The translations under genes were made by a program, and so were the position numbers. The notes below the pieces were generated by a model that saw only the letters and a program-made list of their open reading frames with translations, made no database searches and was not told the DNA's origin. This document shows, one piece after another, positions 533 to 60,430 of a DNA stretch of 64,000 bases; the first letter of the stretch is position 1, and every line of letters begins with the position of its first letter. The stretch spans positions 1,426,001 through 1,490,000 of the forward strand of contig JANJGN010000121.1 in assembly GCA_026770705.1 (NCBI GenBank), in the 5' to 3' direction. The DNA is from Isurus oxyrinchus. Its lineage: Eukaryota.

Positions 533-572
533 AGCTCAGTGATTAATGTGTTGATAATTTTGTATTTGAAAG

Positions 573-830: not shown

Positions 831-844
831 GTGAGTATATTTTT

Positions 845-9187: not shown

Positions 9188-9445
9188 ATTCTCCTCACAA
9201 CACGTCTGTCAGGCTGACACGGGAAAAAGGAAAGGTGATTTCTCTAAGTTGTTCCAGTGACGGCAATCCAGCAGTCCACAATTTCACCTGGTTTAAGATC
9301 TCCCAAGGCAAGGTGACGAATCTGGCACTCGCTGTTCAAAATATTACAGTTCCTTATGGATTTGAAGAGGAAATCTCCTACTACTGTGAAGCAACAAGTA
9401 TCCTGGGCAGTTCCCAGTCTCTGCCCATTAGAATTCCCACTGAAT
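9188..9445 (+). CDS. Siglec-like gene 1, C2-set Ig exon, repeat unit 6
   Basis: AG acceptor and GTGAGT donor, 258 bp open frame with an extra NIT sequon. Confidence 0.9.
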
Positions 9446-10897: not shown

Positions 10898-11155
10898 ATT
10901 CTCCTCGCAATACATCTATCAAGATGACACTGGAAAAAGGAAAGATGATTTCTCTAAGTTGTTCCAGTGACGGGAATCCAGCAGTCCACAATTTCACCTG
11001 GTTTAAGATCTTCCAAGGCAAGGTGACGACTCTGGTGCTCACTGGTCAAACTATTACAGTTCCTTATGGATTTGATGAGGAAATCTCCTACTACTGTGAA
11101 GCAACAAGTATCCTGGGCAGTTCCCAGTCTCTGCCCATTAGAATTCCCACTGAAT
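10898..11155 (+). CDS. Siglec-like gene 1, C2-set Ig exon, repeat unit 7
   Basis: tttcaaag acceptor, GTGAGT donor, 258 bp open frame. Confidence 0.9.
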
Positions 11156-12615: not shown

Positions 12616-12873
12616 ATTCTCCTCGCAATACATCTGTCAGGATGACACTAGGAAAAGGAAAGATGATTTCTCTAAGTTGTTCCAGTGACGGCAATCCAGC
12701 AGTCCACAATTTCACCTGGTTTAAGATCTCCCAAGGCAAGGTGACGAATCTGGCACTCGCTGGTCAAACTATTACAGTGCCTTATGGATTTGATGAGGAA
12801 ATCTCCTACTTCTGTGAAGCAACAAGTATCCTGGGCAGTTCCCAATCTCTGCCCATTAGAATTCACACTGAAT
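12616..12873 (+). CDS. Siglec-like gene 1, C2-set Ig exon, repeat unit 8
   Basis: AG acceptor and GTGAGT donor, 258 bp open frame (SYFC variant). Confidence 0.9.
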
Positions 12874-14321
12874 GTGAGTAATTTTTTTTTTTCGTTCTTG
12901 GGATGAAGGTCTCACTTGCTAGACCAACATTTATTGCCCATCCCAAATTACCCTGGAACAGAGTGGTTTGCTGGGCCATTTCAGAGTGTATTGAAGAGTC
13001 AACCACATTGCTGTGGGTCTGGAGCCACATGTAGGCCAGACCAGGTAAGCACAGCAGATTTCCCTCCCTAAAGGACATTAGTGAACCAGATGGGTTTTTA
13101 ACAACAATCGGAAATGTTTTGGTCATTGTTAGAATTTTAATTCCAGATTCTAATTGAATTGCTTGGCAAGTGGACATTTGACACTTTGGCAACAATTTGT
13201 CCACAATTATCTGCTTCCAAGGCAATCATCACACTCTACTCATGCAGTATCAATTGTTGTTCCTTTTGAGATTTGGTATTCTTGCAATTCTGATCTGATG
13301 AGTGAAAGATAAAAAGCTTTTACAGAATATCTCATTTCACACCATGCTCAAGTTTAGTACTGCCAAGTGACTATAAATATCTTCTTCTGTAAATCAGAAT
13401 CCTGAATACTCTCTCAAATGACTAACACATCATTCCTGGTACATGAATCATAGAAAGTTAGTATGCAGGTGCAGCAAGTGGTTAGGAAGGCAAATGGAAC
13501 GTAGGTGTTTATTGTAAGGGAGCTCGAGTGTAAAAGTAGGGACGCATGTTACAATTTTACAGGCTCTTGGTGAGACTGCATCAGGAGTACTGTGTACAGT
13601 CTTGGCTTCGGACATAGAAAAGATCCGGCTGAATATGCAGCTGTAGACTACCTGTAATTCTGTGTAACATTATCTGCAGGTGAGGAATACAGTGCAGTTT
13701 GTACTTGTGCTAGTGTTGGAGCTGTATCCAGTCCATGATTACATAAAGAGACTATTCAAATCTAGATTTTAAACCTCATGAGTTTGCCCATATTTAATTC
13801 ATTTGCTGATATGGGCAACATCCCTAATTACCGCTTGAGCCATTGTCTTGAACTGCTGCAGTCCATGTGCATTAGGTACAACCACAGCAATGTTAGGCAG
13901 TGAGTTCCAGGATTTTGACCCAGTGACAGTGTAAGAATGGCAATAGATTTCCAAGTCAGGATGGTGAATGACTTGGAGGGGAACTTACAGGTGGTGGTGT
14001 TTCCATGAGTCTTCTGTCCTTGTCCTTCTAGATGTTAGAGGTCACAGATTTGGAAAGTGCTGTTAAAGGAGCCTTGGTGAGCAGTTGCAGTGCATCTTGT
14101 AGATGGTACACACACTGCTGCCACTGTGCATCGACGGTGGAGAGAGTGAATGTTGAAGATGATGAGTGGTATGCCACTCAAGTGGGCTACTTTGTCCTGG
14201 ATGGTATCAAGCTTCTTGAGTGTTGTGGGAGCTGCACTCATCCAGGCAAGTGGAGAGTATTCTATTCACACCCCTGACTTCAGCTCAGTGTTTAATGTGT
14301 TGATAATTTTGTATTTGAAAG

Positions 14322-14579
14322 ATTCTCCTCACAACACGTCTGTCAGGATGACACTGGAAAAAGGAAAGATGATTTCTCTGAGTTGTTCCAGTGACGGGAA
14401 TCCAGCAGTCCACAATTTCACCTGGTTTAAGATCTCCCAAGGCAAGGTGACGAATCTCGCGCTCGCTGGTCAAACTATTGCAGTTTCTTATGGATTCGAT
14501 GAGGAAATCTCCTACTACTGTGAAGCAACAAGTATCCTGGGCAGTTCCCAGTCTCTGCCCATTAGAATTCCCACTGAAT
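14322..14579 (+). CDS. Siglec-like gene 1, C2-set Ig exon, repeat unit 9 (last)
   Basis: AG acceptor and GTGAGT donor, 258 bp open frame. The downstream intron no longer matches the repeat unit. Confidence 0.9.
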
Positions 14580-15169
14580 GTGAGTAATTTCAATCCTGAC
14601 TTTTAAACAATTCCACATCTTGTCCAAACTCCGAGGTGAACCAAATCTCCCCTTGGGTGTTGCTGAAAACATGCTGTCGAAGGTTTCAATCCTCGTCAGG
14701 ACAGAGTCACGAGAAAACCCAATCTCAAAGGGAACAGCCATTTCTGATGCGGGGGAAGAGGGCGTGCTGATTGGCTGGCAAGTCGACATTTCTCCACAGT
14801 TTGTTCACAATTCTCAGTGATGGTGACCGTGAAACTGCCAGATTGCTGTAAAAACCCATCTGGTGCACAAATCTCCTTTAGGGAGGGAATTCTGCCATCC
14901 TTACCCGGTCTGGCCTACATGTGACTCCTGACCCACAGCGATGTGGGTGAATCTTAACTGCCCCTCTGAATGGGCCGGGCATGCCACTCAGTTGTATTCG
15001 AGCGGGCGGCTCACCACCGCCTTCTCAAGGGGCAACTAGGGATGGGCAATAAACGCTGGCCCTGCCAGTGATGCCCACATTACTGAATGAATTCCAATAG
15101 AAGAGGAATCCTCCCATTCTAGAGATTGGCGATCCATACACTGGGCTGACATTCCCAGTCATTCAATAA

Positions 15170-16182: not shown

Positions 16183-16364
16183 GTCAGTCCCTGCCCAAGG
16201 TCATTAAAGAGTAAATGACCATTGGATAGTGGACACACGGGGGATTCAGAAACCTGTCCCTATTCAGGACAAAACAAGGTCACGTTATTATAGTGCGGGA
16301 CCAAGACACATCCCGAAAGACATTCCCATCGTATCCACGTCAGACGTTGAAGGCTGTGGCAGAG

Positions 16365-17052
16365 TGTGGCGCTGTCGGAGGGTCAGTACTGAGGGAGTGC
16401 TGCACTGTCGGAGGGTCAGTACTGAGGGAGTGCTGCACTGTCGGAGGGTCAGTACTGAGGGAGTGCTGCACTGTCGGAGGGTCAGTACTGAGGGAGTGCT
16501 GCACAGTCGGAGGGTCAGTACTGAGGGAGTGCTGCACAGTCGGAGGGTCAGTACTGAGGGAGTGCTGCACTGTCGGAGGGTCAGTACTGAGGGAGTGCCG
16601 CACTGTCTGAGGGTCACTACTGAAGGAGTGCTGCACTGTCGGAGGGTCAGTACTGAGGGAGTGCTGTACTGTCGGAGGGTCAGTACTGAGGGAGTGCTGC
16701 ACTGTCTGAGGGTCTCTACTGAAGGAGTGCTGCACTGTCAGAGGGTCAGTACTGAGGGAGTGCTGCACTGTCAGAGGGTCAGTACTGAGGGTGTGCTGCA
16801 CTGTCAAAGGGTCAGTACTGAGGGAGTGCTGCACTGTCGGAGGGTCAGTAATGAGAGAGTGCTACACTGTCAGAGGGACAGTACTGAGGCAGTGCTGCAC
16901 TGTCAGAGGGTCAGTACTGAGGGTGTGCTGCACTGTCAGAGGGTCAGTACTGAGGGAATGCCGCACTGTCTGAGGGTCACTACTGAAGGAGTGCTGCACT
17001 GTCAGAGGGTCAGTACTGAGGGTGTGCTGCACTGTCAGAGAGTCAGTACTAA
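16365..17052 (+). repeat. 33-bp minisatellite (GAGGGTCAGTACTGAGGGAGTGCTGCACTGTCG)n
   Basis: About 20 tandem copies; source of the spurious CRRVSTEGVLH ORFs. Confidence 0.95.
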
Positions 17053-17054
17053 AG

Positions 17055-17495
17055 GAGGTTACAATTCTCAGGAAAGACTGAACAAGCTGGGATTCTTTTC
17101 TCTAGAAAAGAGAAGGCTGAACGGTGACTTGATTGAGGTCTTTAAAATGATGAAAGCGTTTCAATAGGGTAGACGTAGAGATGATGTTTCCACTTATGGA
17201 TGAGAACAGAACTAGGGGCCATCGATATAAGACCATCATTAATAAATCCAATGGGAAATTCAGGAGAAACTTCTTTACCCAGAGAGTGGGGAGAATGTGG
17301 GACTCGCTCCCACAGGGAGTGATCGAGGTGAATAGTGTTGATGTATTTAAGGGGGAAGCTGGATAAACACCTGAGTGAGAAAGGGGTAGAAGGACGTGGT
17401 GATGGGGTGAGATAGGGGGTGGGGGGAGGCTCGTGTGGAGTAGAAACACCACCACAGAGCAGATGGGCTGAACGGTCTTTTGCTGTGCTGGAAGT
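17055..17495 (+). mobile_element. CR1 LINE 3' end fragment
   Basis: ERLNKLGFFSLEKRRLNGDLIEVFK ... RTRGHRYK ... RRNFFTQRV..W.SLP. Confidence 0.8.
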
Positions 17496-17910
17496 GAACT
17501 CTATCCTGTGATAATTCTAGGTCTCCTGCATTTATTCAACGCGCTGAGAACCTGAGGACACCCCAAGGAGCGTTCCAGCCTTTGCTTGGAGTGTGGTCAC
17601 AGCCCTACTTCTGCACAGCAAGATCCCACAAATGTCAATGGCCAAATAATCAGTTGATAATTATTTTATGTTAACTGTTGTGCTTTCAGGGCTGAGAGAA
17701 CTCCCCCTGCACCCATCGTCTTTGCTCTTCTTGAGCGGACCAGGCTCATTATCTGTGATGCCTCCCACAGTAGGATAGCCAGCTGAGTAGGCTGCCACTT
17801 GACGATAATTGTGTGACGCTTGGTGATTTATGGGAAGTGATCTTTACAGGGTGCGCGTGAGAATTTAAGGGATTTCTCACCTGATCATTTCTCATTCTTC
17901 TCCTCCTTAG

Positions 17911-18031
17911 CTGGAACAACGTCTGGCCTGATGTGGAAAATTGGATTAGGTTCTGTGGGAGGGGCTGTCCTGCTCATCACTACGACAATCGCGATTTACC
18001 TCATTACAAAGACATTCAGGAGAACGGACAA
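17911..18031 (+). CDS. Siglec-like gene 1, transmembrane exon
   Basis: Strong pyrimidine tract plus ttag, donor AA|GTGAGT. In phase it encodes AGTTSGLMWKIGLGSVGGAVLLITTTIAIYLITKTFRRTD: a hydrophobic stretch followed by a basic stop-transfer. Confidence 0.85.
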
Positions 18032-18057
18032 GTGAGTGTGGGCACAACTGGGAAATC

Positions 18058-20650
18058 AACCCTCCCTTTCTCTGTAACCTACTCCAATCCTTACACACCT
18101 CCCTATTTCTGTAACCTCCTCCAGTCCCTACAACCCTCCCTATTTCTGTAACCTCCTCCAGCTGCGACAATCTTCCCTCTCTCTGTAACCACCTCCAGCC
18201 CCTACAACCCTCCCTATCTCTGTAACCTCCTCCAGTCCCTACAACCCTCCCTATCTCTGTAACCTCCTCCAGTCCCTACAACCCTCCCTATCTCTGTAAC
18301 CTCCTCCTGCCCCTACAACCCTCCTTATCTCTGTAACCTCCTCCAGCCTCTACAACCCTCCCTATCTCTGTAACCTCCTCCAGCACCTACAACCCTCCCT
18401 TTCTGTAACCTCCTCCAGTCCCTACAACCCTCCCTATTTCTGTAACCTCCTCCAGTCCCTACAACCCTCCCTATTTCTGTAACCTCCTCCAGTCCCTACA
18501 ACCCTCCCTATTTCTGTAACCTCCTCCAGTCCCTACAACCCTCCCTATCTCTGTAACCTCCTCCAGCTGCGACAATCTTCCCTCTCTCTGTAACCTCCTC
18601 CAGCCCCTACAACCCTCCCTATCTCTGTAACCTCCTACAGCCTCTACAACCCTCCCTATCTCTGTAACCTCCTCCAGCACCTACAACCCTCCCTTTCTGT
18701 AACCTCCTCCAGTCCCTACAACCCTCCCCATCTCAGTGACCCACATCAGACCCTACAACCCTCCCTATCTCTGTAACCTCCTCCAGCCCCTACAACCCTC
18801 CCTATCTCTGTAACCTCCTCCAGCCCCTACAACCCTCCCTATCTCTGTAACCTCCTCCAGCCCCGACAACCCTCCCTTTCTGTAACCTCCTCCAGCCCCT
18901 ACAACCCTCCCTATCGCTGTAACCTCCTCCAGCCCCGACAACCCTATCTCTGTAACCTCCTCCAGCCCCTACAACCCTCCCTATCTCTGTAACCTCCTCC
19001 AGCCCCTACAACCCTCCTTATCTCTGTACCCTCCTCCAGCACCTACAACCCTCCCTTTCTGTAACCTCCTCCAGTCCCTACAACCCTCCCCATCTCAGTG
19101 ACCCACATCAGACCCTACAACCCTCCCTATCTCTGTAACCTCCTCCAGCCCCTACAACCCTCCCTATCTCTGTAACCTCCTCCAGCCCCTACAACCCTCC
19201 CTATCTCTGCAACCTCCTCCAGCCCCGACAACCCTCCCTATCTCTGTAACCTCCTCCAGCCCCTACAACCCTCCCTATCTCTGTAACCTCCTCCAGCCCC
19301 TACAACCCTCCCTATCTCTGTAACCTCCTCCAGCCCCTACAATCCTCCCTTTCTGTAACCTCCTCCAGCTCCTACAACCCTCCCTATCTCTGTAAACTCC
19401 TCCAGCCCCTACAACCCTCCCTATCTCTGTAACCTCCTCCAGCCCCGACAACTCTCCCTATCTCTGTAACCTCCTCCAGCCCCTACAACCCTCCCTATCT
19501 CTGTAACCTCCTCCAGTCCCTACAACCCTCCCCATCTCAGTGACCCACATCAGACCCTACAACCCTCCCTATCTCTGTAACCTCCTCCAGCCCCGACAAC
19601 CCTCCCTTTCTGCAACCTCCTCCAGCCCCTACAACCCTCCCTATCTCTGTAACCTCCTCCAGCCCCGACAACCCTCCCTATCTCTGTAACCTCCTCCAGT
19701 CCCTACAACCCTCCCCATCTCAGTGACCCACATCAGACCCTACAATCCTCCCTATCTCTGTAACCTCCTCCAGCCCCTACAACCCTCCCTATCTCTGTAA
19801 CCTCCTCCAGCCCCAACAACACTCCCTATCTCTGTAACCTCCTCCAGCCCCTACAACCCTCCCAATCTCTGTAACCTCCTCCAGCCCCAACAACCCTCCC
19901 TATCTCTGGAACCTCCTCCAGCCCCGACAACCCTCCCTATCTCTGTAACCTCCTCCAGCCCCTACAACCCTCCCAATCTCTGTAACCTCCTCCAGCCCCA
20001 ACAACCCTCCCTATCTCTGGAACCTCCTCCAGCCCCGACAACCCTCCCTATCTCTGTAACCTCCTCCAGCCCCGACAACCCTCCCTATCTATATAGCCTC
20101 CTGCATCCTGCCAGAATCAGGAAAAGAACCGGAGGGGGAGATGAGGGGAATTTTTTTTTGACACAGCGAATTGTTGTGATCTGGAAGGCGTTGCCTGAAA
20201 GGGCGGTGGAAGCAGATTCAATAGCAACTTTCACAAGGGGGAATTGTATAAATACTCAAAGGGGAAAATTTTGCAGGTCTATGAGGGAAAGAGTGGGGTC
20301 ACGGACATTCGGGACTAATTGGACAGATCTTTCAAAGAGCCAGCACAGGCACGATGGGCTGAATGGTTTGTTTTGTCTCCTTATTCCTCCTCCCTATCTC
20401 TGTAACCCCTCCAGCCCCTACAACCCTCCCTATCTCTGTAACCCCTTCCAGCACCTACAACTCTCCCTATCTCTGTAACCTCCTCCAGCCCCTACAACCC
20501 TCCCTATCTCTGTAACCTCCTCCAGCCCCTACAACCCTCCCTATCTCTGTAACCTCCTCCAATCCCTACAACCCTCCCTATCTCTGTAACCTCCTCCAGC
20601 CCCTACAACCCTCCCTATCTCTGTAACCTCCTCCATCCCCTACAACCCTC
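18058..20650 (+). repeat. 37-bp minisatellite (CTCTGTAACCTCCTCCAGCCCCTACAACCCTCCCTAT)n
   Basis: Tens of tandem copies, interrupted at about 20100-20390 by a CR1 tail copy and running into an L2-like 3' tail at about 20650-20900. Confidence 0.95.
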
Positions 20651-24335: not shown

Positions 24336-24431
24336 ATGTATGTATTGTGGGTGGAATTTTCGATTTGGATCAATAATTCTAAACACTGATCACTCTGATT
24401 GTCACTCTGATCATTTCTGTTTCTATTACAG

Positions 24432-24548
24432 AAGAAAGATGAGAAGGTTCTGGAAATGAAATCTAACCGCGGAGTCAATCCTGATACAGATGATGATCTT
24501 TACGCAAACTGTGAATTTGCTGAGGATTCTGTTTATGGGAATTTATAA
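24432..24548 (+). CDS. Siglec-like gene 1, terminal cytoplasmic exon with tyrosine motifs
   Basis: tttctgtttctattacag acceptor; encodes KKDEKVLEMKSNRGVNPDTDDDLYANCEFAEDSVYGNL*. SVYGNL fits the ITIM consensus S/I/V/LxYxxL/V. Confidence 0.8.
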   Translation, partial: KKDEKVLEMKSNRGVNPDTDDDLYANCEFAEDSVYGNL

Positions 24549-26365: not shown

Positions 26366-27025
26366 AGCCTTGGCACCAAAGGGGTTACCAGTTTGCTTAT
26401 GGTGCAAGACAAAGTGTTGGTTTCTCACATTCACACCAACCACCTCACATTTTGATTCACAGTGACACATCAACCCTTTCTAATTAAATACACAGAGGGA
26501 GCAGCACAGGAAGAGGTCATTCAGCCCAAGCAGAGCGTGTGGGCAGTTCCTCCACAGGCGAGCAGTCGGTCCTGGGTAAGTAACAGAACGATTGGAATTC
26601 ACTTCCACAACCAACACCGTCCTTTGTTGATGTTGTGACTTTATAAAGTCAGATTCCAATGCTTGATGGCTTTGAAAGATTTCTACTGATTATTGAGATC
26701 TGGGTGTGAGGCTCAAGTTTGTTGTACAGAACATCTTTCTAGCTCAAGGGATGAGGTAAGTGCAGAGACACGAGCTTTGGGACATCCTGAGGTGGTGAAA
26801 GGCGCAATGGAAATGCAAGTCCTTCATTGTTTTTCTTTCTTAAAGCCTTGTGAAACTCTGCAGAGCACCTATCATCCCACAGAGAATCAAATTAGTCTGT
26901 GAAGACATTGTCTAAAAGCAGTTCCGATCTCTCGACAGCTGTCGGACAAGAGGTGAGGTCTCATTAACTCCTTTCTCTTTCACAGCTTGAGAGTGAGAAG
27001 TGGATGGAATATCTGGGAGTGGACA

Positions 27026-27065
27026 ATGATCGGGAAATCTTACTTCCTCCTGTCACTTCTCCAAG
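27026..27065 (+). CDS. Siglec-like gene 2, leader (signal peptide) exon
   Basis: acaATG ATC GGG AAA TCT TAC TTC CTC CTG TCA CTT CTC CAA G|GTAAT, with an upstream acceptor ctttcacag at 26985. Joins either V exon in phase 1 to give MIGKSYFLLSLLQVGLSQ|EW. Confidence 0.75.
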
Positions 27066-27903
27066 GTAATATCACCATCAGCTCAGACAGATTTATGGTT
27101 AATAGTCTTTGTAAAAGATCATTCTTATTGAGCTGTGATTGGGAACCGATTCAGCAGTGACCCAGTGTACAGACTCACAACAAGTCCCATTCACCCATCA
27201 CCCCTGTGCTCACTGATATACACTGACTCCCTGTCTGGCAGCAGAATTGGAGGAGAGCAGAGATCTCAGAGGGCTGCAGGGGCTGGAGGAGGTTACAGAG
27301 ATAGGGAGGGTAGAGGGGGTTTAAGGGATTGGAATTGAGGATGAGGATCTTAAAATCGAGGTGTTGCTTGACTGGGAGCCTATGTAGGTCAGCGTGAATG
27401 GGGGTGGGTGGTAAAAGGTTGAGTAGAAAATCAGGAATAAAAACTGGGGATGAAGTCTATCCCGATGCTAGGAATCCGATAGCCATATACTGAAATTTGT
27501 GTCTTTTGCTGATTTTAGTCAGAATTTCTCATGAAGACAACACAGCAGCTCCTAGAATAGACAGGCTGTTCAGTGTCACAATTCCTGTCCATTCTCACCA
27601 TGATAGCAACTTCGATAAGGGAGCAAGATAACTGAAAGAGAGAAGGAAGGTAAAGCTGTCCGTGTGTAAAGGTGTCAATATTCAGTTTGCATATTTGTCT
27701 TTCTCTCGACACATGCAGAGCTCAGGCTAGAGGCGCTTTGTTAGTGTGTTTCACAGTGTCTGCTGGAGTAGGGTCAGTGCTGAGCTTGGGGACAAGTCAG
27801 TCTACAATGCTGCATCGGAATCAACAATACAACAATATGGGGTTTGGATCAGAAATAATCCCTTAGACAATGAGGATCCAAAGAGATTCCATAGACAATG
27901 AGG

Positions 27904-29414
27904 TTCCAATCTCCACCCCTCCATCATTTTCACGTGGTCCATCTCTGACACTTCCCTTCCCTTCCTTGACCTCTCTGTCTCAATCTCTGGTGATAGACTG
28001 TCCACCAATATCCATTACAAACCCACCGACTCCCACAGCTACCTCGACTACAGCTCCTCACACCCCGCTTCCTGTAAAGACTCCATCCCATTCTCCCAGT
28101 TCCTTCGCCTTCGTCGCATCTGTTCCGATGATGCTACCTTCAAAAACGGTTCCTCTGACATGTCCTCCTTCTTCCTTAACCGAGGTTTTCCACCCACGGT
28201 CATTGACAGGGCCCTCAACCGTGTCCGGCCCATCTCCCACACATCCGCCCTCACGCCTTCTCCTCCCTCCCAGACACATGATAGGGTCCCCCTTATCCTC
28301 ACTTATCACCCCACCAGCCTCCGCATTCAAAGGATCATCTCCGCCATTTCCGCCAACTCCAGCATGATGCCACCACCAAACACATCTTCCCTTCACCCCA
28401 CTTATCGGCATTCCGTAGGGATCGCTCCCTCTGGGACACCCTGGTCCACTCCTCCATCACCCCCTACTCCTCAACCCCCTCCTATGGCACCACCCCATGC
28501 CCACGCAAAAGATGTAACACCTGCCCCTTCACTTCCTCTCTCCTCACCGTCCAAGGGCCCAAACACTCCTTTCAAGTGAAGCAGCATTTCACTTGCATTT
28601 CCCCCAACTTAGTCTACTGCATTCATTGCTCCCAATGTGGTCTCCTCTACATTGGAGAGACCAAACGTAAACTGGGCGACCACTTTGCAGAACACCTGCG
28701 GTCTGTCCGCAAGAATGACCCAAACCTCCCTGTCGCTTGCCATTTTAACACTCCACCCTGCTCTCTTGCCCACATGTCTGTCCTTGGCTTGCTGCATTGT
28801 TCCAGTGAAGCCCAGCGCAAACTGGAGGAACAACACCTCGTCTTCCGACAAGGCACCTTACAGCCTTCCGGACTGAATATTGAATTCAACAACTTTAGGT
28901 CGTGAGCTCCCTCCCCCATCCCCACCCCATTTCTGTTTCCCCCTTTCTTTTTTTTCCAATAAATTATATAGATTTTTCTTTTCCCACCTATTTCCATTAT
29001 TTTTAAATATTTTAAAATCTTTTATGCTCTCCCCACCCCCATTAGAGCTATACCTTGAGTGCCCTACCATCCATTCTTAATTAGCACATTCGTTTAGATA
29101 ATATCACCAACTTTAACTTTAACACCTATGTGTTCTATTGTACCATTGTCGTTGACATCTTTTGATGATCTGCTTCTATCACTGTTTGTTTGTCCATATA
29201 ACCACACCCCCAACCACCCCCCCAACCACCCCCCCAGCAACCTCTCTCTCTCCACCCACCACACACACACCTTAAACCAGCTTATATTTCAACTTTTTCT
29301 TGGACTCGAACTCAAGTTCTGTCGAAGGGTCATGAGGACTCGAAACGTCAACTCTTTTCTTCTCCGCCGATGCTGCCAGACCTGTTGAGTTTTTCCAGGT
29401 AATTCTGTTTTTGT
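27904..29414 (+). mobile_element. 5'-truncated Penelope-like retroelement (RT C-terminus plus GIY-YIG endonuclease)
   Basis: FTCISPNLVYCIHCSQCGLLYIGETKRKLGDHFAEH...GLN is the PLE GIY-YIG domain; one frameshift near 28340. A hammerhead-like motif lies at 29315-29353, and the element is flanked by the direct repeat TGAGG(ATCCAAAGAGATTC). Confidence 0.85.
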
Positions 29415-29881
29415 TGAGGATCCAAAGAGATTCTTTAGAGAATGAAGATTACAAAATGCACTAATTATATTGAATCAGATTAGCCAATCAGCTGTGCTGA
29501 AGAGCAGACAGGAATGTTAGGCTAATTAGTGATTCATGACGGTGATAATGGGGGGAGTTCTGAGGGCTCCTAATCCATTGTCCTGTCTTGTAAATCAGCA
29601 CTGAATGGATCTCAATTGGTGCATCTTGTAGACACTGTGTTGGGTGGAAGACTGGCTTCACTAAACTGGGTCCTGAGGACCATGAGCCAATGTAGAATGA
29701 ACTTGTCCACTCCTGTGTCCAGGATTCACTTCCATCCATTCTGAAACCTTGGGGAGTTCCTTGTGTGTCCTGCAGATGGTCCACACTGCAGCCACTGTGC
29801 CCCAGTGATGGAGGGAGTGGATATCGAGTGTAGTGGATCGAAAAAACATCCACAGTTAAATATTGAGATTTCTCTCCCCAG

Positions 29882-30250
29882 TTGGACTGTCACAAGAGTG
29901 GAAGGGTGACACGCCACAAGAGGTGATAGCGCAGGAAGGTTCGTGTGTACAGATTCCATGTCATTACAGTTATCTATCAGAGTTGGAAAACCAACTGCGA
30001 GCTAGAGTCTGGTTTAATAATGAGAAACAGATTCCCTGGGCTCCCATAGCCTTTCACTCCAAGGATCACAGTCACGAGTTACCACGGTTCCGGCATCAGC
30101 CCCGGCTGTCTGGAGACCTGAAAGATGGCGACTGTTCCCTGATTATAACCAACATCAGACGGGAAGATGCAGGACCTTATTTTTTCAGAATAGAATTTGA
30201 CATCAGGAACAGTTACAGCTACTATCCTGTAACCCAGCTTCACGTTTCTG
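29882..30250 (+). CDS. Siglec-like gene 2, V-set exon V1
   Basis: ctctccccag acceptor, GTAAGT donor, 369 bp, phase 1-1. Siglec V-set hallmarks: GSCVQIPC, GDL..GDCSL.I.NI..EDAG.YFFR (essential Arg), Phe instead of the F-strand Cys, and G-strand aromatic YSY. Confidence 0.92.
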
Positions 30251-31051
30251 GTAAGTGCTGCGTTATAATTACTACTCCAACGCACTCCTGGCTGGTCTCG
30301 CACATTCTACCCTCTGTAAACTTGGGGTCATCTTAAACTCTGCAGCCCCTGTCTTAACCAGCAGTAACTCCCATTCCCTTATCCCCCCTGTACTCTCTGA
30401 CCTTGAATGGCTCCTGGTCAAGGAGCCAATGATTTCATGATTTTAAAATGCTTGTCCTTGCTTCCTCTCTATCTCTGTAATCTCTTCCTGTGCGACAGCC
30501 TTCCCAGATTTCTGCACTCCTCTACCTCTGGACTCTTCAGCATCCCTGATTTCCATCGCTCCAGCATGGACGGCCAAGCCTTCAGTAGCCTGGGTCCTGA
30601 GACTTAAATCCTTTCATCTTTCTATCTCCTCCTTTAAGGTGCTCCTTAAAACCCACCTCTTCAACCAAGATTCTGATCACCAGACCTAATATCTCCTTAT
30701 ATGGTGTGGGACGATACTTTGTATTATAATGCTCCTGTGTAGCACCTTGTGATGTTTTATTACAATATAATCTATTGTTCTATGCTCCTCTAGACCATTT
30801 ATATTCTTAATTTCAAGGTATTATGCAACCTCCTTATTTTCCTGACCAAAATATAATACCTCACATGTATTAATGTTGAAATTAATTTGTCAATTAACTG
30901 CCCATTCTGCAAGTTTATTAATATCTTCCTGCAAATTTGTTGCAGTCCTCCCTATTATTGACCATCCCCCCAATTCAGCCACATCTGTAAATATCGGGTT
31001 CAGTGGATCTACAAACCATCCAGAGTTAAATATTGATATTTCTCTCCCCAG

Positions 31052-31420
31052 TTGGACTGTCACAAGAGTGGAAAGGTGACACTCCACGAGAGGTGACAGC
31101 GCAGGAAGGTTCGTGTGTACAGATTCCATGTCATTACAGTTATCCATCGTGTCTGGAAAACCAACCGCGAGGTGGAGTCTGGTTTAATAATGAGAAACAG
31201 ATTCCCTGGGCTCCCATTGCCTTTCACTCGAAGGATCACAGTCACGAGTTACCACGGTTCCGCCATCGGACCCGGCTGTCTGGAGACCTGAAAGATGGCG
31301 ACTGTTCCCTGATTATAAACAACATCAGACGGGAAGATGCAGGACCTTATTTTTTCAGAATAGAATTTGACAATGGTTCGAGCTATAACTATTATCCTGT
31401 AACCCAGCTTCACTTTTCTG
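31052..31420 (+). CDS. Siglec-like gene 2, duplicated V-set exon V2
   Basis: Same acceptor, GTACGT donor, 369 bp, intact. 15 of 123 residues differ from V1 and YFFR is retained. Confidence 0.92.
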
Positions 31421-32122
31421 GTACGTGCTGTGTTATAATTACTCAACAATTCACATTCAACACTCAATGGGAAATAACACAAACTGTGACGTTTACATAT
31501 TAACACAAAACACAGTTTATTATAACACACTGTCTGATTCTCAATAACCTGGTGATAGCTTCCAGTTCAGTCCTAAAGCAACCTCTAATACTCACTTAAA
31601 TATCAATGATTAAATGTACTGACTGTGTCCATCAATGTTATCAACTCCCATCGATCTCTCTAATCCTCTTTTAAACGAAAGACTTGCATTTCTATAGCGC
31701 CGTTCACCACCTCAACACGTCTCTTGCATGTTCACAGCCAATGAAATATTTCCTGAGTTGTCGTTATCGTTGTCATGTCAGAAACACAGCTGACAATTAA
31801 TGCACAGAAAGATCCCACAGACTGCAATAACATAAATAACCCAGATCACTGAGACAATGGCCAGAGGGTGCACTCCAAACTCTGGTCTGCTCCACCACCC
31901 TCACCCACTATTATCAGTTCAAGTTTCTCGGAGTGAACATGTATTAAGCTGAGAGACAGAAACACCAAAGTCTCAAAGCAGGAAATTCTCTCCTGATCAT
32001 TGTAATCTCTCAGTTCTGATATCATCCTTGTAAAAGTGCTTTCTCTTGTGGGACTGTGATTTCTATTTGAACTGATGCTTCACGTTATATTTCTCTAAAA
32101 GGATCCATTCTCTGTCTGTTAG

Positions 32123-32478
32123 ATTTCACAGATAAACCCACGATATTCCCTGCTGAAATTATTGCAGGAAAGCATGTGGATGTAAGCTGCACCTTCAACA
32201 CAACGTGCAATGGAACAGCAGCACCTGTCTTAACCTGGGACACTCCCACTGACGTACCTGGATCAGTCTCAAACACTGTAACTCAGCATGGTGTCACTCT
32301 GACCTATACTTCTGTTCTGACCCTGATCCCATCACTCAAACACCACGGACACACTCTCAGCTGCAGAGTTAGATATCCATCTGTTTCATCGGAGCGGACC
32401 CTCGTACTAACTGTGCAACAGAAGTACAGACATCCTTCATTCTACATCAGCGACAGTCCGGTACTCCCCCGGTACTGA
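32123..32478 (+). CDS. Siglec-like gene 2, C2-set domain-2 exon reading through to a stop
   Basis: tctgttag acceptor. DFTDKPTIFPAEIIAGKHVDVSCTFNTTCNGTAAPVLTW resembles MAG domain 2 (P.EVVAG..V.VSC.....C...P.L.W). The expected donor after LTVQ reads AGAAGT (32420-32425), and the frame runs on to TGA at 32476-32478. Confidence 0.8.
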
Positions 32479-32885
32479 TCTCTAACAATGCAGCACTCCC
32501 TCAGTACTGATCTCCAACAATGCAGCGCTCCCCAGATACCGATCTCCAACAGTGCAGCACTCCCTCAGTACTGATCTCCGACAGTGCAGCACTCCCTCAG
32601 TACTGACCCTCCAACAGTGCAGCACTCCCTCAGTACTGATCTCCGACAGTGCAGCACTCCCTCAGTACTGACCCTCTGACAGTGCAGCACTCCCTCAGTA
32701 CTGATCTCCGACAGTGCAGCACTCCCTCAGTACTGACCCTCTGACAGTGCAGCACTCCCCCAGTACTGATCTCCGACAGTGCAGCACTCCCTCAGTACTG
32801 ACCCTCCAACAGTGCAGCACTCCCCCAGTACTGAGCCTCTGACAGTGCAGCACTCCCTCAGTCATAATCCTCCGACAGTGCAGAG
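32470..32885 (-). repeat. 32/33-bp minisatellite (same family as 16365-17052, inverted)
   Basis: (CAGTGCAGCACTCCCTCAGTACTGACCCTCCGA)n. Confidence 0.9.
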
Positions 32886-32899
32886 TTCCTTCTGGGAAA

Positions 32900-34000
32900 G
32901 GCAGTGGTGTAGTCGCTGGATGAGTAATCCAGAGTCCTGGGGTAATCTGCTGGGGACCTTGGTTCAAATCCCATCACGGCAAATGGTGAAATTTGAATTC
33001 AATAAAAAAAAACCTGCTGATAACTACTGTCCTAAAAACCTCTCTAGTTTCACTAATGCCCTTTAAAGAAGGAAATCTGCTGTCCTTACCTGGTTTGGCC
33101 TGCATGCGACACCGGGCCCACAGCGATGTGGTTGACACTGAACTCGCCCTCCGAAATGGCTGAGCAAGCCGCTCAGTTGTGTTACAAAGGAATGAAACCA
33201 GATGGACCACCCAATGTCAACCAAGGCACTGGAAACGAAAACGGCAATCTCAACCCTGTCGACCCTGCAAAGCCCTCCTTACTAGTCCTCCTCACTAACT
33301 TCGATGGGAGAGCTAGTCAAGCAACAGCCTGACATAGTCATCCTTACAGGTAATGTCCCAGGCACCACCATCACCATCCCTGGGTATGTCTTGTCCCACT
33401 GCCCAGCAGAGGTGGCAGCAGAGGGAGTTGCCCTGGGAGCCCTCCTCATCAACTCCAGATCCCAGGAAGTCTCATGCCATCAGGTTACACATGGGCAAGG
33501 AAACCTCCTGCTGATTACCACGTACCGGCCTCCCTCAGCTCATGAACCCGTGCTCCTCCATGTTGATCAGCGTTTGGAGGAAGCACTGAGGGTGGTAAAG
33601 GTGCAGAATCTACTTTAGGTGGGGGGATTCAATGCCCATCACCAAGAGTGGCTCCTTGGCGCCTCTGAGGATCCAGAGATTCCTTAGACAATGGGGATCC
33701 AACAGCATCTTCCTAAATCGCGACCTCTACCACCTAGAAGGACAAGGGCAGCAGACACATGGGAACACCACCACCTGGAAGTTTCCCTTCAAGTCACTCA
33801 CCATCCTGACTTGGAAATATATCACCGTTCCTTCACTGTCGCTGAGTCAAAATCCTGGAACTCCCTCCCTAACAGCACTGTGGGTGTACCTACACTACAG
33901 GGACTGCAGCGGGTCAAGAAGGCAGCTCACCACCCCCTTCTCAAGGGCAATTATGGAACAATAAATGCTGGCCCAGCAAGCGACACCCTCATCAAGAGCT
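32900..34000 (+). mobile_element. SINE plus internally deleted L2/CR1-clade LINE (endonuclease fragment and 3' tail)
   Basis: LVKQQPDIVILT...ITIPGY...LLITTYRPP...GDFN-like APE endonuclease motifs, followed by the same 3' tail as 57180-57470. Confidence 0.7.
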
Positions 34001-34224
34001 TGACGAAAAAATGGTTCTTGATCCTCATTTCCTCTACTTCAATGCAAGTGGCTAGTCATCTCACTCAGTTTCTTATTGTCAGGAATATCAGTTCTGCTTG
34101 TGTTGTACAGATCCGCTGATGCTTTATTGCTTCGCAAATATCTATCATCTTTCAGTAACAAATTAAGGAACCAATGATCATGCAAGAGAAACTATGAGGG
34201 AGCTGACATCAGTATGAGAGTAGC

Positions 34225-36585
34225 CCTCCTTCAGTACTGCCCCTCCGACAGTGCAGCACTCCCTCAGTACTGACCCTCCGACAGTGCAGCACTCCCTCAG
34301 TATTGACCCGCCGACAGTGCAGCACTCCCTCAGTACTGACCCTCCGACAGTGCAGCACTCCCTCAGTACTAACCCTCCGACAGTGCAGCACTCCCTCAGT
34401 ATTGACCCTCCGACAGTGCAGCACTCCCTCAGTACTGACCCTCCCGACAGGGCAGCACTCTCTCATTACTGACCCTCCGACAGTGCAGCACTCCCTCAGT
34501 ACTGACCCTCCGACAGTGCATCACTCCCTCAGTACTGACCCTCCGGACAGTGCAGCAATCCCTCAGTAGTGACCCTCCGACAGTGCAGCACTCCCTCAGT
34601 ACTGACCCTCCCGACAGTGCAGCACTCTCTCATTACTGACCCTCCAACAGTGCAGCACTCCCTCAGTACTGACTCTCCGACAGTGCATCACTACCTCAGT
34701 ACTGACCCTCCGGACAGTGCAGCAATCCCTCTGTACTGATCCTCTGACAGTGCAGCACTCCCTCAGTACTGACCCTCCCGATAGTGCAGCACTCCCTCAG
34801 TACTGACCTTACGACAGTGCAGCACTCCCTCAGTACTGACCCTCCGACAGTGCATCACTCCCTCAGTACTGACCCTCCGGACAGTGCAGCAATCCCTCTG
34901 TACTGATCCTCTGACAGTGCATCACTACCTCAGTACTGACCCTCCGGACAGTGCAGCAATCCCTCTGTACTGATCCTCTGACAGTGCAGCACTCCCTCAG
35001 TACTGACCCTCCCGATAGTGCAGCACTCCCTCAGTACTGACCTTACGACAGTGCAGCACTCCCTCAGTACTGACCCTCCGACAGTGCATCACTCCCTCAG
35101 TACTGACCCTCCGGACAGTGCAGCAATCCCTCTGTACTGATCCTCTGACAGTGCAGCACTCCCTCAGTACTGACCCTCCTGATAGTGCAGCACTCCCTCA
35201 GTATTGACCTTCCGACAGTGCAGCACTCCCTCAGTACTGACCGACAGTGCAGCTCACCCTCAGTACTGTCCCTCCGACAGTGCAGCACTCCCTCAGTACT
35301 GACCCTCCGACAGTGCAGCTCTCCCTCAGTACTGATCCTCCGACAGTGCAGCACTCCCTCAGTACTGACCTTCTGACAGTGCAGCTCTCCCTCAGTACTG
35401 ACCCTCCGACAGTGCAGCACTCCCTCAGTACTGACCCTCCAACAGTGCAGCACTCCTTCAGCACTGACCCTCTGACAGTGCAGCACTCCTTCAGCACTGA
35501 CCCTCCGACAGTGCAGCACTCCCTCAGAACTGACCCTCGACAGTGCAGAGCTCCCTCAGTACTGACCTTCTGACAGTGCAGCACTCCCTCAGTACTGACC
35601 CTCCGACAGTGCAGCACACTCTCATTACTCACCCTCTGACAGTGCAGCACTCCCTCAGTACTGACCTTCTGACAGTGCAGCACTCCCTCAGTACTGACCT
35701 TCTGACAGTACAGCACTTCCTCAGTACTGACCCTCTGATAGTGCAGCACTCCCTCAGTACTGACCCTCTGACAGTGCAGCACTCCCTCAGTACTGACCTT
35801 CTGACAGTGCAGCACTCCCTCAGTACTGACCCTCCGACAGTGCAGCACTCCCTCAGTACTGACCCTCTGACAGTGCAGCACTCCCTCCGTACTGACCTTC
35901 TGACAGTGCAGCACACTCTCATTACTCACCCTCTGACAGTGCAGCACTCCCTCAGTACTGACCTTCTGACAGTGCAGCACTCCCTCAGTACTGACCTTCT
36001 GACAGTACAGCACTTCCTCAGTACTGACCCTCTGATAGTGCAGCACTCCCTCAGTACTGACCTTCTGACAGTGCAGCTCTCCCTCAGTACTGACCCTCCG
36101 ACAGTGCAGCACTCCCTCAGTACTGACCCTCCAACAGTGCAGCACTCCTTCAGCACTGACCCTCCGACAGTGCAGCACTCCCTCAGAACTGACCCTCGAC
36201 AGTGCAGAGCTCCCTCAGTACTGACCTTCTGACAGTGCAGCACTCCCTCAGTACTGACCCTCTGACAGTGCAGCACTCCCTCAGTACTGACCTTCTGACA
36301 GTGCAGCACCCCCTCAGTACTGACCCTCCGAAAGTGCAGCACTCCCTCAGTACTGACCCTCTGACAGTGCAGCACTCCCTCAGTACTGACCCTCTGACAG
36401 TGCAGCACTCCCTCAGTACTGACCCTCTGACAGTGCAGCACTCCCTCAGTACTGACCTTCTGACAGTGCAGCACTCCCTCAGTACTGACCCTCCGACAGT
36501 GCAGCTCTCCCTCAGTACTGACCCTCCGACAGTGCAGCTCTCCCTCAGTACTGACCTTCTGACAGTGCAGCACTCCCTCAGTACG
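34225..36585 (-). repeat. ~2.4-kb 33-bp minisatellite
   Basis: (ACAGTGCAGCACTCCCTCAGTACTGACCCTCCG)n, about 70 copies. Confidence 0.95.
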
Positions 36586-37074
36586 GATCATTTTTCAGCT
36601 AACAGGAACTGAGTAGGGCCTTGAGGGGCCTGGCCAGGTTAAAAATCGCACCATCACAGAAAACGAACGTCATCATCGTGATGCAGGACAACAACAGCTA
36701 GCAAATTTATTTAGACTTCTATTCATGTGATGCTGTGTCTTTTACTGCCAATTAATAAATTGAAACTGCTTAACGAACATTGCAAGGCAATTTTAAATTA
36801 TATCAGAGGATGTCACCTCACTTTGCAACAAGTTGGTTGTTTAAAAAAAATTCTCCTCATCTCCCCCTCTGGCTCTTTTCCCGATTCTCTTCAATCTGAG
36901 TCCCTCTGGTTACCGACCCTCCTGCCACTGGAAACACTTTCTCCTTATTGACTCTACCGAGACCTCTTCACGATTCTGAACGGCTTGATTCAATCTCCTG
37001 TTAGTCCTTACTGCCCAAATAGAATTAACGTCTTGCAGCCCTCAGGGCTTGTGTACCTCAAATTCCTGCATCCC

Positions 37075-43412: not shown

Positions 43413-43877
43413 TGTACGCTAAATGGTAACGTGGATTCGGCTCCGGTGTCCAGGCTTGTGGACGAGCGACTCTTTTTCACGCGGCGCCTGTTTGGGATCT
43501 GGAACGCACTGCCTCAGGGTTGTGGGGGAGGCAGATTCAATGGTGGCTTTCGGAGAGGGAATTGGGTCATTGTACCCAAAATGGAAAAGCGTTGGGGGAG
43601 GGGCTACGGGGGGGAAGAAGTGGAAGGGCGGATTGCTGAGTTGCTCCTTCAGAGGGCCAGCACAGGCACGCGGCCCAAATGGCCTCCGCCTGTTCTGCCA
43701 ACCGTACAATGATTCTATGCCTGTGACTGAACACGTGTAGTCACCAACACAGTAACCGCACTAAAGTGATAACGGAGGGTGGCTTTACCCGGTGAACACG
43801 TTATCGGGGGGTGGGGAGGGGGGGGGAGGAGAAGCGGGAATGTCTGTCCCGGTGCCGGTTAGCAGCAGCCCACTTGC

Positions 43878-44020
43878 CTGTAGTCCAGGACAGGCCCGAT
43901 CCTCTGCAGCGTCTTGGCCACGTTGAAACGCACGTTCGCCACCGGGTCACTCCCCATCCGCAGGACGGTGGGCAGCATGATTTTGGTGGTGATGTCCTTT
44001 CCACACACGTCGTACAGAAC
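43878..44020 (-). CDS. PPP2R1A: PP2A scaffold subunit A exon (GC donor)
   Basis: [47 protein letters not shown]; 143 bp; donor AG|GCAAGT. Confidence 0.92.
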
Positions 44021-44029
44021 CTGGAGGGA

Positions 44030-45900
44030 GGGAGGAGGATGAAGGTGGTGGGGGTGGGGGTGGGAAAGGGGAGGGGAGGGGGGGGGAGGGGTGGTGGTGT
44101 GGCGGGGGGGATGGGAGGGGTGGGAAGGTGTGGGGGAGGGAGAGGGATGGGGTGTGGGGGGAGGGGAGGGGTGGGGTGTGGGGGTGGGGGAGAGGAGGGA
44201 TGGGGAGGGGAGGGGTGGGAAGGTGTGGGGGAGGGGAGGTGTGGGGGAGGGGGTGGGTGGGGTGAGGGTGAGGGTGAGGGTGTGGGGGTGGGTGGGGTGA
44301 GGGTGTGGGGGTGGGGGAGGGGTGAGGGTGTGGGGGGTGAGCGGGAGGGGATGGGTGAGGGTGAGGGGGTGAGTGGGTGGGGGAGGGGTGAGGGTGTGGG
44401 GGTGAGTGGGTGGGGGAGGAGTGAGGGGGTGGGGGCAGGGTGAGGGTGAGGGTGTGGGGGGTGGAGGTGGGTGGGGTGAGGGTGTGGGGGTGGGGATGGG
44501 TGGGGTGAGGGGATGGGGTGTGGGTGGGGGAGGAGTGAGGGTGTGGGGGTGAGTGGGAGGGGATGGGTGAGGGTGAGGGTGAGGGTGAGGGTATGGGGGT
44601 GGGTGGCGGTAGGGTGAGGGTGAGGGTGTGGGGGTGGGGGTGGGTGGGGTGAGGGTGTGGGGGTGGGGATGGGTGGGGTGAGGGGATGGGGTGTGGGTGG
44701 GGGAGGGGTGAGGGTGTGGGGGTGAGTGGGTGGGGGAGGGGTGAGGGTGTGGGGGTGAGTGGGAGGGGATGGGTGAGGGTGAGGGTGAGGGTGAGGGTAT
44801 GGGGGTGGGTGGCGGTAGGGTGAGGGTGAGGGTGTGGGGGTGGGGGTGGGTGGGGTGAGGGTGTGGGGGTGGGGATGGGTGGGGTGAGGGGATGGGGTGT
44901 GGGTGGGGGAGGGGTGAGGGTGTGGGGGTGAGTGGGTGGGGGAGGGGTGAGGGTGTGGGGGTGAGTGGGTGGGGGTGGGGTGAGGGTGAGGGTGTGGGGG
45001 TGGAGGTGGGTGGGGTGAGGGTGTGGGGGTGGGGATGGGTGGGGTGAGGGGATGGGGTGTGGGTGGGGGAGGAGTGAGGGTGTGGGGGTGAGTGGGTGGG
45101 GGAGGGGTGAGGGTGAGTGGGTGGAGGAGGGGTGAGGGTATGGGGGCAGGGTGAGGGTGAGGGTGTGGGGGTGAGTGGGTGGGGGAGGGGTGAGGGTATG
45201 GGGGCAGGGTGAGGGTGTGGGGGTGAGTGGGTGGGGGAGGGGGGAGGGTGTGGGGGTGAGTGGGTGGGGGAGGGGTGAGGGGGGTGGGGTGTGGGTGGGG
45301 GAGGGGTGAGGGTGTGGGGGCAGGGTGAGTGTGAGGGTGTGGGTGGGGGAGGAGTGAGGGTGTGGGGGTGAGTGGGTGGGGGAGGGGTGAGGGTGAGTGG
45401 GTGGAGGAGGGGTGAGGGTATGGGGGCAGGGTGAGGGTGAGGGTGTGGGGGTGAGTGGGGTGGGGGCGGGGTGAGGGTGTGGGGGTGGAGGTGGGTGGGG
45501 TGAGGGTGAGGGTGTGGGGGGTGGGGGAGGGGTGAGGGTATGGGGGGCAGGGTGAGGGTGAGGGTGTGGGGGTGGGTGGGGGTGGGTGGGGGCAGGGTGA
45601 GGGTAAGGGTGTGGGGGTGGGTGGGGGTGGGTGGGGGCGGGGTGAGGGTGTGGGGGTGGAGGTGGGTGGGGTGAGGGTGAGGGTGTGGGGGTGGAGGTGG
45701 GGGGAGGGTATGGAGGCAGGGTGAGGGTGTGGGGGTGAGTGGGTGGGGGAGGGGTGAGGGTGTGGGGGTGAGTGGGTGGGGGAGGGGTGAGGGTGTGGGG
45801 GTGGGTGGGGTGAGGGTGTGGGGGGTGGGTGGGGGCGGGGTGAGGGTGTGGGGGTGAGTGGGTGGGGGAGGGGGGGAAGGGTGGCGTGGGGGTGCGGACA
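44030..45900 (+). repeat. G-rich simple repeat (GGGTGA/GGGGT/GGGTGT runs)
   Basis: About 1.9 kb almost entirely of G-tracts separated by T, TGA or TGT. Confidence 0.95.
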
Positions 45901-46504
45901 GGGGGAGGGAGGAGAATTAGAGCTACACAGGAAAGAGATCCCGCGCTGGTTCGGGACATTGTCGAGCAGCTTCCTCCAGCTGTGACCTCAGAAACACGGC
46001 CCAGCCAGATCCCAGAAACAGCAGCGGATTTCCACTGACACCCCTGTTCCCTCACAATAACCCTCCCTGCTGGGAGGCGAGGGGTCTTTAACCCCGCCAG
46101 CCCTGGGTGGTGGGGGTGCGGCGGAACACAGAATTAATTACCTCTGAAAGACGGCACCTCTGCTCTTAGGAATTGGCGACAAAATAAAAAAAATCCGAGG
46201 GTAAATCTCAAATGGAGGTGAAGGATCCCGCAGCCACGATTTGGAACAAGAACATTGTGCGGAGTTTGGGCGGAGGGGTTTTGCTCAGAATCCTGGGACC
46301 AATATTTATGCCTCAAACTACGTCGCTGTAAAGATCCGGTTCATTGTCAGGTTGCCGTTTCTGGGATCTTGCTGTGCGCAATTCGGCTGCCGCGTTTCCG
46401 ATATGACAACAGTGACCTCGCTTCAAGGCACCGGCAGCATTTTGGGACAACGAGAGGATGTTTACTCTGCATTGCCGGCCTGGATCGCCGGGTCACAGCT
46501 TGAG

Positions 46505-48225: not shown

Positions 48226-48289
48226 GAGACAGTGTTAAACCATTAAACCATGGCTCCCTCTAGTGGTTGCAAGTAGGATGCTGGACTTT

Positions 48290-57688: not shown

Positions 57689-60430
<2,742 letters not shown>

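What the first reader, a model, noticed from the sequence alone, without database searches (positions are those of the whole stretch)
27026..32478. One leader, two V-set exons: alternative or tandem sialic-acid-binding domains in a single Siglec gene
Seen: V1 (29882-30250) and V2 (31052-31420) are both intact phase 1-1 exons that start with the signal-peptide tail VGLSQ. The duplicated block covers only about 60 bp of upstream and 23 bp of downstream intron, and I see no second leader between them. Both keep YFFR. Nine of the 15 amino-acid differences fall in two patches: the B-C region (YLSELENQLRAR versus YPSCLENQPRGG) and the F-G loop/G strand (FDIRNSYSY versus FDNGSSYNY). Known: the F-strand Arg and G strand form the sialic-acid site, and tandem V-V Siglecs are rare (Siglec-12). 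Inference: either mutually exclusive splicing switches ligand specificity, or a V-V-C2 protein is made.
Basis: partly seen in the sequence, partly recalled or inferred. Interest (0 to 1): 0.7.

Follow-up and report, generated by a model that had tools for sequence, protein, structure and literature searches.

The report
Stacked-domain shark Siglec, truncated copy
This shark immune-receptor gene has two sugar-binding-type domains behind one signal peptide, as many of its hundreds of relatives do (up to ten), and an extra cysteine in the second domain suggests the two are likely made in tandem and locked together rather than swapped by splicing; this copy has lost the splice site towards its membrane anchor, so it would be secreted or is decaying.

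Summary
The two V exons are real, but not rare. The assembly holds 334 exact V-exon starts and 307 leaders. Of 40 sampled stretches, 21 show 2-4 V exons in a row; one gene has ten. Among 116 shark and ray protein models, 31 have adjacent V domains. V exons behind another V carry an extra BC-loop cysteine (78 of 79); those behind a leader mostly lack it (8 of 46, 7 of them in broken genes). V2 has it, V1 does not. Leader-V1-V2-C2 then has 10 pairable cysteines, leader-V2-C2 an odd 7. A disulfide-stapled tandem V-V-C2 chain is therefore the likely design; mutually exclusive splicing is unlikely. No V-to-V RNA junction was seen or excluded. V1 and V2 are not a local duplicate pair and share the CC' region. 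This scan noted the cysteine staple before on another contig of this genome; I found no paper on it.

The parts
26488..26575 (+). Putative 5' untranslated exon, homologous to a cytoplasmic-tail exon of the family; ends at a GT donor
   Evidence: tblastn of family proteins; same block upstream of the leader in most paralogs; use as an exon is inferred
27026..27065 (+). Coding part of the leader exon (13 codons + 1 nt), GT donor
   Evidence: leader-to-V joint in contigs of 3 of 4 runs, family level; 307 exact copies in the assembly
27910..29414 (.). About 1.5 kb repeat insertion in intron 1, absent from several paralogs
   Evidence: paralogs L020, L023, L027, L029 match 27707-27909 and then 29415-29664; no Pfam hit for its two ORFs
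27242..27309 (.). One arm of an inverted repeat pair (other arm 30464-30530) that flanks V1; both arms are copies of a common repeat
   Evidence: 68 nt, 75% complementary; duplex -115 kcal/mol against -69 +/- 5 for 100 shuffles of one arm, region chosen after the fact
29882..30250 (+). V1 exon, first-position type: keeps the domain-linking Cys (29944-29946) and the F-strand Arg (30187-30189), lacks the BC-loop Cys; 11 private letters
30251..31051 (+). V1-V2 intron, 801 nt, GT..AG, no leader copy
31052..31420 (+). V2 exon, inner type, F-strand Arg kept
   Evidence: 6-9 nt from inner V exons of other genes
31150..31152 (+). Extra BC-loop Cys codon of V2, predicted partner of the V1 linking Cys
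   Evidence: the bond itself is inferred
32123..32419 (+). C2-set exon with the Siglec linking Cys
   Evidence: Pfam C2-set_2; V-to-C2 joint in contigs of 4 of 4 runs, family level; Cys aligns with those of CD33 and MAG
32419..32421 (+). Destroyed C2 splice donor
   Evidence: GT present in 51 of 53 paralog rows, absent here; this form occurs only here and in the C150 copy
32420..32478 (+). Read-through tail ending at TGA 32476-32478
   Evidence: last 18 residues identical in Carcharodon model XP_041037187
33001..33006 (+). First AATAAA after the stop, possible intronic poly(A) signal
   Evidence: use untested

Best explanation
This is a two-V member of a very large shark Siglec-like gene cluster in which V2 carries an extra BC-loop cysteine, so V1 and V2 are likely spliced in tandem and predicted to be joined by a disulfide; this copy lacks its C2 splice donor and any membrane exon nearby, so it would give a secreted 377-residue V-V-C2 protein or is decaying. 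In ordinary Siglecs a Cys of the V domain bonds to a Cys in the next (C2) domain. Inner V domains of this family have gained a Cys at the matching loop position, so each V can accept the bond from the V before it and pass its own Cys on to the next domain. That lets genes stack 1 to 10 V domains. Shown: exon structure, family size, the position rule, the cysteine count, the lost donor. Inferred: tandem splicing, the bond, secretion. Untested: expression of this copy and sialic-acid binding. Some skipping of V1 or V2 may occur on top.
For: Position rule in the genome: Cys in 78 of 79 V exons behind another V, 8 of 46 behind a leader, 0 of 31 with nothing upstream in view; of those 8, five have stops in V, one has a stop in C2 and one a frame break in the membrane exon. 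In regions picked afterwards on the Cys motif, 49 of 53 new Cys-type exons lay behind another V. In NCBI models from sharks and rays: 38 of 49 scorable V domains behind a V, 1 of 104 first domains, 0 of 6 behind a C2. All 73 intact V exons followed by another V keep the linking Cys. Cys count: V1-V2-C2 10, V1-C2 6, V2-C2 7. The shark C2 linking Cys aligns with those of CD33 and MAG, where the bond is known (C36-C169, PMC6669322; C37-C165, PMC5150538). First V domains of multi-V genes are diverse (mean identity 0.76, n=39), inner ones uniform (0.90, n=59), as expected for head and stalk. Lost donor and no downstream exon.
Against: No V-to-V joint was among the 15 joints shown of 112, so tandem splicing is not shown in RNA. 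The multi-V proteins are computed gene models, and none of the 120 listed hits came from transcript contigs. Two Carcharodon models join the leader straight to a Cys-type V: isoform XP_041037230, which skips V1, and XP_041037187, which has the same read-through tail as this gene. One leader-V(Cys)-C2 gene in this genome looks intact (C52:1127943), and 11 of 49 inner domains in the models lack the Cys, 4 of them in two ray proteins and 3 in one long Cetorhinus model. Paralogs are related, so the counts are not independent. The predicted model gave no Cys-Cys distance. V1 differs from its nearest paralogs about as much at replacement as at silent sites (pN 0.06-0.07, pS 0.05-0.12), which fits decay.
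Confidence: 0.72

Rival explanations
1. This copy is a decaying or silent pseudogene; V1 is drifting and, if anything is made, it is a leader-V2-C2 fragment that skips V1.
For: Donor destroyed and no later exon to the end of either contig. V1 has 11 letters absent from 50 distinct paralog exons (8 replacement, 3 silent; family median 1), including a Gly to Arg next to the C-strand Trp. An inverted repeat pair flanks V1. The Carcharodon look-alike has one V, 6 residues from V2 and 16 from V1, and a 12-residue gap in C2. Broken copies are common in the cluster.
Against: All four exons are open in both assembled copies. V2 and C2 are 98-99% like paralogs while their flanking introns are 90-95%, though gene conversion could do that. 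A terminal read-through exon would escape junction-based decay (established knowledge). This rival is compatible with the tandem design of the family.
Confidence: 0.35
2. V1 and V2 are mutually exclusive cassettes that switch ligand specificity.
For: Equal length and phase, both start like an N-terminal domain, both keep the Arg. V1-skipping isoforms exist among NCBI models. G-strand and BC-loop differences lie in loops that distinguish human Siglecs (PMC6669322).
Against: Nothing blocks double inclusion: 369 nt is a multiple of 3 and the intron is 801 nt. V2 alone leaves an odd Cys. First and inner exons differ systematically. Residues 43-70 are identical. The only notable complementary pair is repeat-derived.
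Confidence: 0.07
3. V2 has its own hidden leader or promoter inside the V1-V2 intron, so these are two overlapping transcription units.
For: An ATG at 30437 opens 13 mostly hydrophobic codons that end at a GT in the right phase.
Against: It lies in a repeat copy, has a poor donor context and no likeness to the family leader; no leader copy lay between V exons in any multi-V run of the 0.89 Mb sample.
Confidence: 0.03

Closest known systems
Primate Siglec-12 / Siglec-XII
   Same: [quoted passage not shown]
   Different: That paper calls it the only Siglec with two V-set domains; here multi-V genes are about half of the sample and reach ten. Both Args are kept here, lost in humans. Orthology not tested; an independent origin is inferred. 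Whether Siglec-12 has the BC-loop Cys was not tested here.
CD33 / Siglec-5 / MAG V-C2 unit
   Same: F-strand Arg, B-E disulfide pair and V-to-C2 linking cysteines align; the V2-C2 part of a homolog model matches MAG, CD33 and Siglec-10 at Z 18.
   Different: One V only; membrane-anchored. Here the linking bond is predicted to be repeated between V domains, and this copy has no anchor.
Shark NAR-TcR (two V domains on TcR delta)
   Same: Outer V has a leader and a Cys in the a-b loop; the supporting V has no leader and a conserved Cys in CDR1, a putative inter-domain bond (PMC1845163, passages). Same staple geometry.
   Different: Rearranging antigen receptor, unrelated family; works alike, not a member.
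Dscam-type mutually exclusive exon arrays (recalled, no paper read)
   Same: Homologous exons of equal phase in a row between constant exons.
   Different: No barrier to double inclusion; exons are position-specialised.

Membership tests
Siglec | N-terminal V-set domain followed by C2-set domain | tested here: met
   Pfam V-set, Ig_CD22, C2-set_2; PDB hits Siglec-5, -7, -8, MAG, CD33
Siglec | Conserved F-strand arginine | tested here: met
   YFFR aligns with Siglec-5 and -7 in V2; same motif in V1
Siglec | B-E intradomain Cys pair and V-to-next-domain linking Cys pair | tested here: met
   By sequence; bonds not measured
Siglec | Membrane anchor with ITIM tail or charged residue | tested here: not met
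   Not found for this copy to the end of both contigs, about 47 kb; present in paralogs
Siglec | Binds sialic acid | not testable with these tools
   No assay
CD33-related Siglec subgroup | Orthology to mammalian CD33-related genes rather than MAG | not tested
   No tree with mammalian Siglecs; CD33 and MAG score alike
Mutually exclusive exon cluster | Homologous exons of equal phase between constant exons | tested here: met
Mutually exclusive exon cluster | Barrier to double inclusion (very short intron, frame shift, incompatible sites) | tested here: not met
   801 nt GT..AG intron, 369 nt exons; joined frame open
Mutually exclusive exon cluster | Docking/selector pairing between introns | tested here: inconclusive
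   23 short inverted pairs; the best is repeat-derived and flanks V1 only; conservation not tested
Mutually exclusive exon cluster | Exons interchangeable at one protein position | tested here: not met
   First and inner V exons differ in the BC-loop Cys and in diversity
Mutually exclusive exon cluster | Transcripts hold exactly one of the exons | tested here: inconclusive
   Only family-level leader-V and V-C2 joints seen; 15 of 112 joints shown

The most novel reading that the evidence does not exclude
Sharks and rays build Siglec-like receptors as stacks of up to ten sialic-acid-binding V domains, chained by a repeating disulfide staple, with a variable head and Arg-keeping inner domains (70 of 72) that act as a multivalent glycan ruler; this anchor-less copy, whose read-through tail is shared with a great white shark model, is a secreted two-V decoy from a cluster of more than a hundred genes.
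Probability: 0.3. Interest if true: 0.72.

Novelty: new variant of a known kind. Interest (0 to 1): 0.48.

Why it matters
Reviews treat one V-set domain per Siglec as the rule, with Siglec-12 the lone exception. Here multi-V genes are routine in a cluster of hundreds of V exons, and one added cysteine offers a simple way to stack them. That is a testable route to avidity or reach in glycan sensing in the oldest jawed-vertebrate immune system, and it parallels the staple proposed for shark NAR-TcR. The locus in this window is a poor representative: it is truncated and may be decaying.

Tried and rejected
Local tandem duplication of one V exon: rejected; V1-V2 differ by 31 nt while the median paralog pair differs by 21, and V2's nearest exons are in other genes (rough tree). 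Assembly artefact: unlikely; a second contig, C150, holds the same arrangement at 97-98.5%. RNA: contigs of four runs guessed to be RNA hold at most 0.34 of the stretch's words, so they come from relatives or paralogs; the leader joint was laid on V2 because V2 is nearest the family norm, which says nothing on V1 skipping. V-to-V splicing remains unexamined in reads. Structure: a model of the Cetorhinus V-V-C2 homolog P0011 (pLDDT 74.6, pTM 0.55) matched Siglecs only over V2-C2 in the listed rows and gives no distances, so it neither supports nor weakens the bond. Search for transcript-derived V-V proteins: none among 120 listed of 207; the three Logan proteins seen have one V. Hydrophobicity scan of 32480-64000: two stretches, neither like the family's anchors. 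Paper searches that found no description of shark multi-V Siglecs or of the cluster: (listings only; the library lacks most subscription papers, so evolution reviews of Siglecs may have been missed; no supplements were read).
Full report
Observation. Leader 27026-27065, V1 29882-30250 and V2 31052-31420 have proper AG/GT ends; the V exons are 369 nt, open and phase 1-1, with 31 nt differences, 15 amino-acid changes and 10 silent codon changes. Nine changes fall at residues 31-41 and 107-112. The shared block runs 61 nt upstream and 23 nt downstream. The domains are Siglec-type by Pfam and PDB sequence search. The nearest named proteins are models from Carcharodon and Cetorhinus at 92-96%.

The gene is one of hundreds. 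A DNA search gave 840 candidates. Exact patterns gave 334 V-exon starts, 307 leaders and 227 V exons of the V2 type. These are lower bounds per pattern, but may count two haplotypes: contig C150 repeats this locus at 97-98.5% over more than 25 kb and ends about as far downstream as C121 does.

Two or more V exons behind one leader are routine. Of the first 40 stretches fetched around V starts on C52, 21 show 2-4 V exons in a row (genes with more exons are more easily picked). In the full 0.89 Mb sample, 39 units were seen whole from leader to C2: 18 with one V, 16 with two, 1 with three, 2 with four, 1 with five, 1 with ten (half of the regions were chosen on inner-type exons, so this is not a frequency). 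One of the ten exons in the longest gene has a stop. Among 116 shark and ray protein models, 34 have two or more V domains, 31 of them adjacent. For mammals the literature names Siglec-XII as the only two-V Siglec (PMC7876704 and PMC6829431, passages).

V1 and V2 are not a local duplicate pair. V2 is 6-9 nt from inner exons of other genes; V1 is at least 24 nt from all 66 exons compared, the C150 copy aside; the median paralog pair differs by 21 nt. The short shared flanks are the limits of family homology.

Tandem or alternative? Siglecs link a Cys of the V domain to a Cys of the next domain: CD33 C36-C169, where the unpaired C36 cross-links isolated domains (PMC6669322, passages); MAG C37-C165 (PMC5150538, passages); Siglec-6 C46-C172 (PMC10122656, passages). 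The shark C2 has this Cys six residues after its B-strand Cys, aligned with CD33 and MAG. V2 has an extra Cys seven residues after its B-strand Cys; V1 does not. The rule is general. In the first sample, intact exons behind a V had it in 28 of 30 cases, those behind a leader in 0 of 23. In regions then chosen on the Cys motif, 49 of 53 new Cys-type exons lay behind another V. Over all 157 exons: 78 of 79 behind a V, 8 of 46 behind a leader, 0 of 31 with nothing upstream in view, 0 of 1 behind a C2. Five of the 8 have stops; of the other three genes one has a stop in C2, one a frame break in the membrane exon, and one looks intact. In the models from other species: 38 of 49 scorable domains behind a V (2 not scorable), 1 of 104 first domains (12 not scorable; the one is a model that begins at an inner-type V), 0 of 6 behind a C2. 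All 73 intact exons followed by a V keep the linking Cys. For this gene V1-V2-C2 has 10 cysteines, V1-C2 six and V2-C2 seven. Only a chain in which V2 follows V1 explains the extra residue. Related genes are not independent samples, but the pattern spans bamboo, cat, hound and mackerel sharks and in part rays. Shark NAR-TcR shows the same layout: an outer V with an a-b loop Cys and a leaderless supporting V with a CDR1 Cys (PMC1845163, passages). I derived this rule before looking at earlier notes; note e1-9575185 had reached it on another contig, which is not independent support.

Mutual exclusion has no visible barrier: the frame survives double inclusion and the intron is 801 nt. First V domains of multi-V genes are diverse (mean identity 0.76), inner ones uniform (0.90), and the Arg is kept in 70 of 72 inner but only 31 of 36 leader-proximal exons. 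V1 and V2 share residues 43-70, and the binding site includes the CC' loop in MAG and Siglec-10. Against a strict tandem reading: NCBI lists a V1-skipping isoform of a two-V Carcharodon gene, and a one-V model with this gene's tail; an inverted repeat pair flanks V1 and could loop it out. RNA contigs show leader-V joints in 3 of 4 runs and V-C2 joints in 4 of 4, at family level; no V-V joint is among the 15 shown of 112. Tandem splicing is therefore inferred, not shown.

This copy is truncated. The GT after C2 is present in 51 of 53 paralog rows (one partial row dropped; three loci appear twice) and absent here. The altered site occurs only here and on C150. The frame reads on to TGA at 32476-32478, and an AATAAA lies at 33001. 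None of 158 family proteins finds a later exon in 32421-64000, the rest of C121 or 20 kb of C150; four proteins find none in the last 25 kb of C150; in the paralogs listed, later exons follow within a few kb. The predicted product is 377 residues without an anchor. Carcharodon model XP_041037187 ends in the same 18 residues but has one V and a 12-residue gap in C2, so the truncation may be old while the copies drift apart. V1 has 11 letters seen in none of 50 distinct paralog exons, 8 of them replacements; V2 has 3; the family median is 1. Decay and diversifying selection cannot be told apart with these numbers.

Verdict. The family-level architecture, V stacks with a predicted disulfide staple, is a new variant of a known kind; I found no paper on it (searches listed under Tried and rejected), though automated gene models already show multi-V proteins and this scan noted the cysteine before. 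The splicing switch proposed for this locus is unlikely, and the locus itself is a truncated copy of uncertain use.

Noticed in passing
window 1-14590: Nine tandem units of about 1.7 kb, each with an open Ig-domain exon (weak Pfam Ig_3/Ig_2 hit on the first, below cut-off), followed by another Ig-like exon near 15897: a gene growing its stalk by exon-unit duplication.
   Followed up: partly
G000:C52:2278000-2307700 and C52:1871000-1890800: Genes with ten and seven V exons before one C2; the ten-V gene goes on to a membrane exon and tyrosine-motif tail exons.
   Followed up: partly
window 24429-24545 and 26488-26575: Copies of two cytoplasmic-tail exons of the family lie upstream of the leader; the second sits before the leader in most paralogs and may serve as a 5' untranslated exon.
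   Followed up: partly
C52 sample, first-position V exons: The F-strand Arg is replaced (Ser, Thr, Gly, Lys) in 5 of 36 leader-proximal and 13 of 27 scorable exons with nothing upstream in view, but in only 2 of 72 inner exons.
   Followed up: partly
L037, L038, L039, L041, L048 and others: Two kinds of membrane exon occur in the cluster: one with a short tail and an Arg in the hydrophobic stretch, one followed by tyrosine-motif exons, as in paired receptors.
   Followed up: no
window 27910-29414: The intron 1 insertion reads, in one frame, like a GIY-YIG nuclease motif of Penelope-type retroelements (recalled; Pfam found nothing).
   Followed up: no
window 16230-20108, 32452-36589, 43800-48260, 54792-55774, 59587-63209: Long minisatellite arrays with 33, 37, 44 and 69 nt units and purine-rich simple repeats.
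   Followed up: no
P0015, P0011 (Cetorhinus models): Models of paralogs also end by reading through the C2 donor, so anchor-less isoforms may be wider spread in the family.
   Followed up: no
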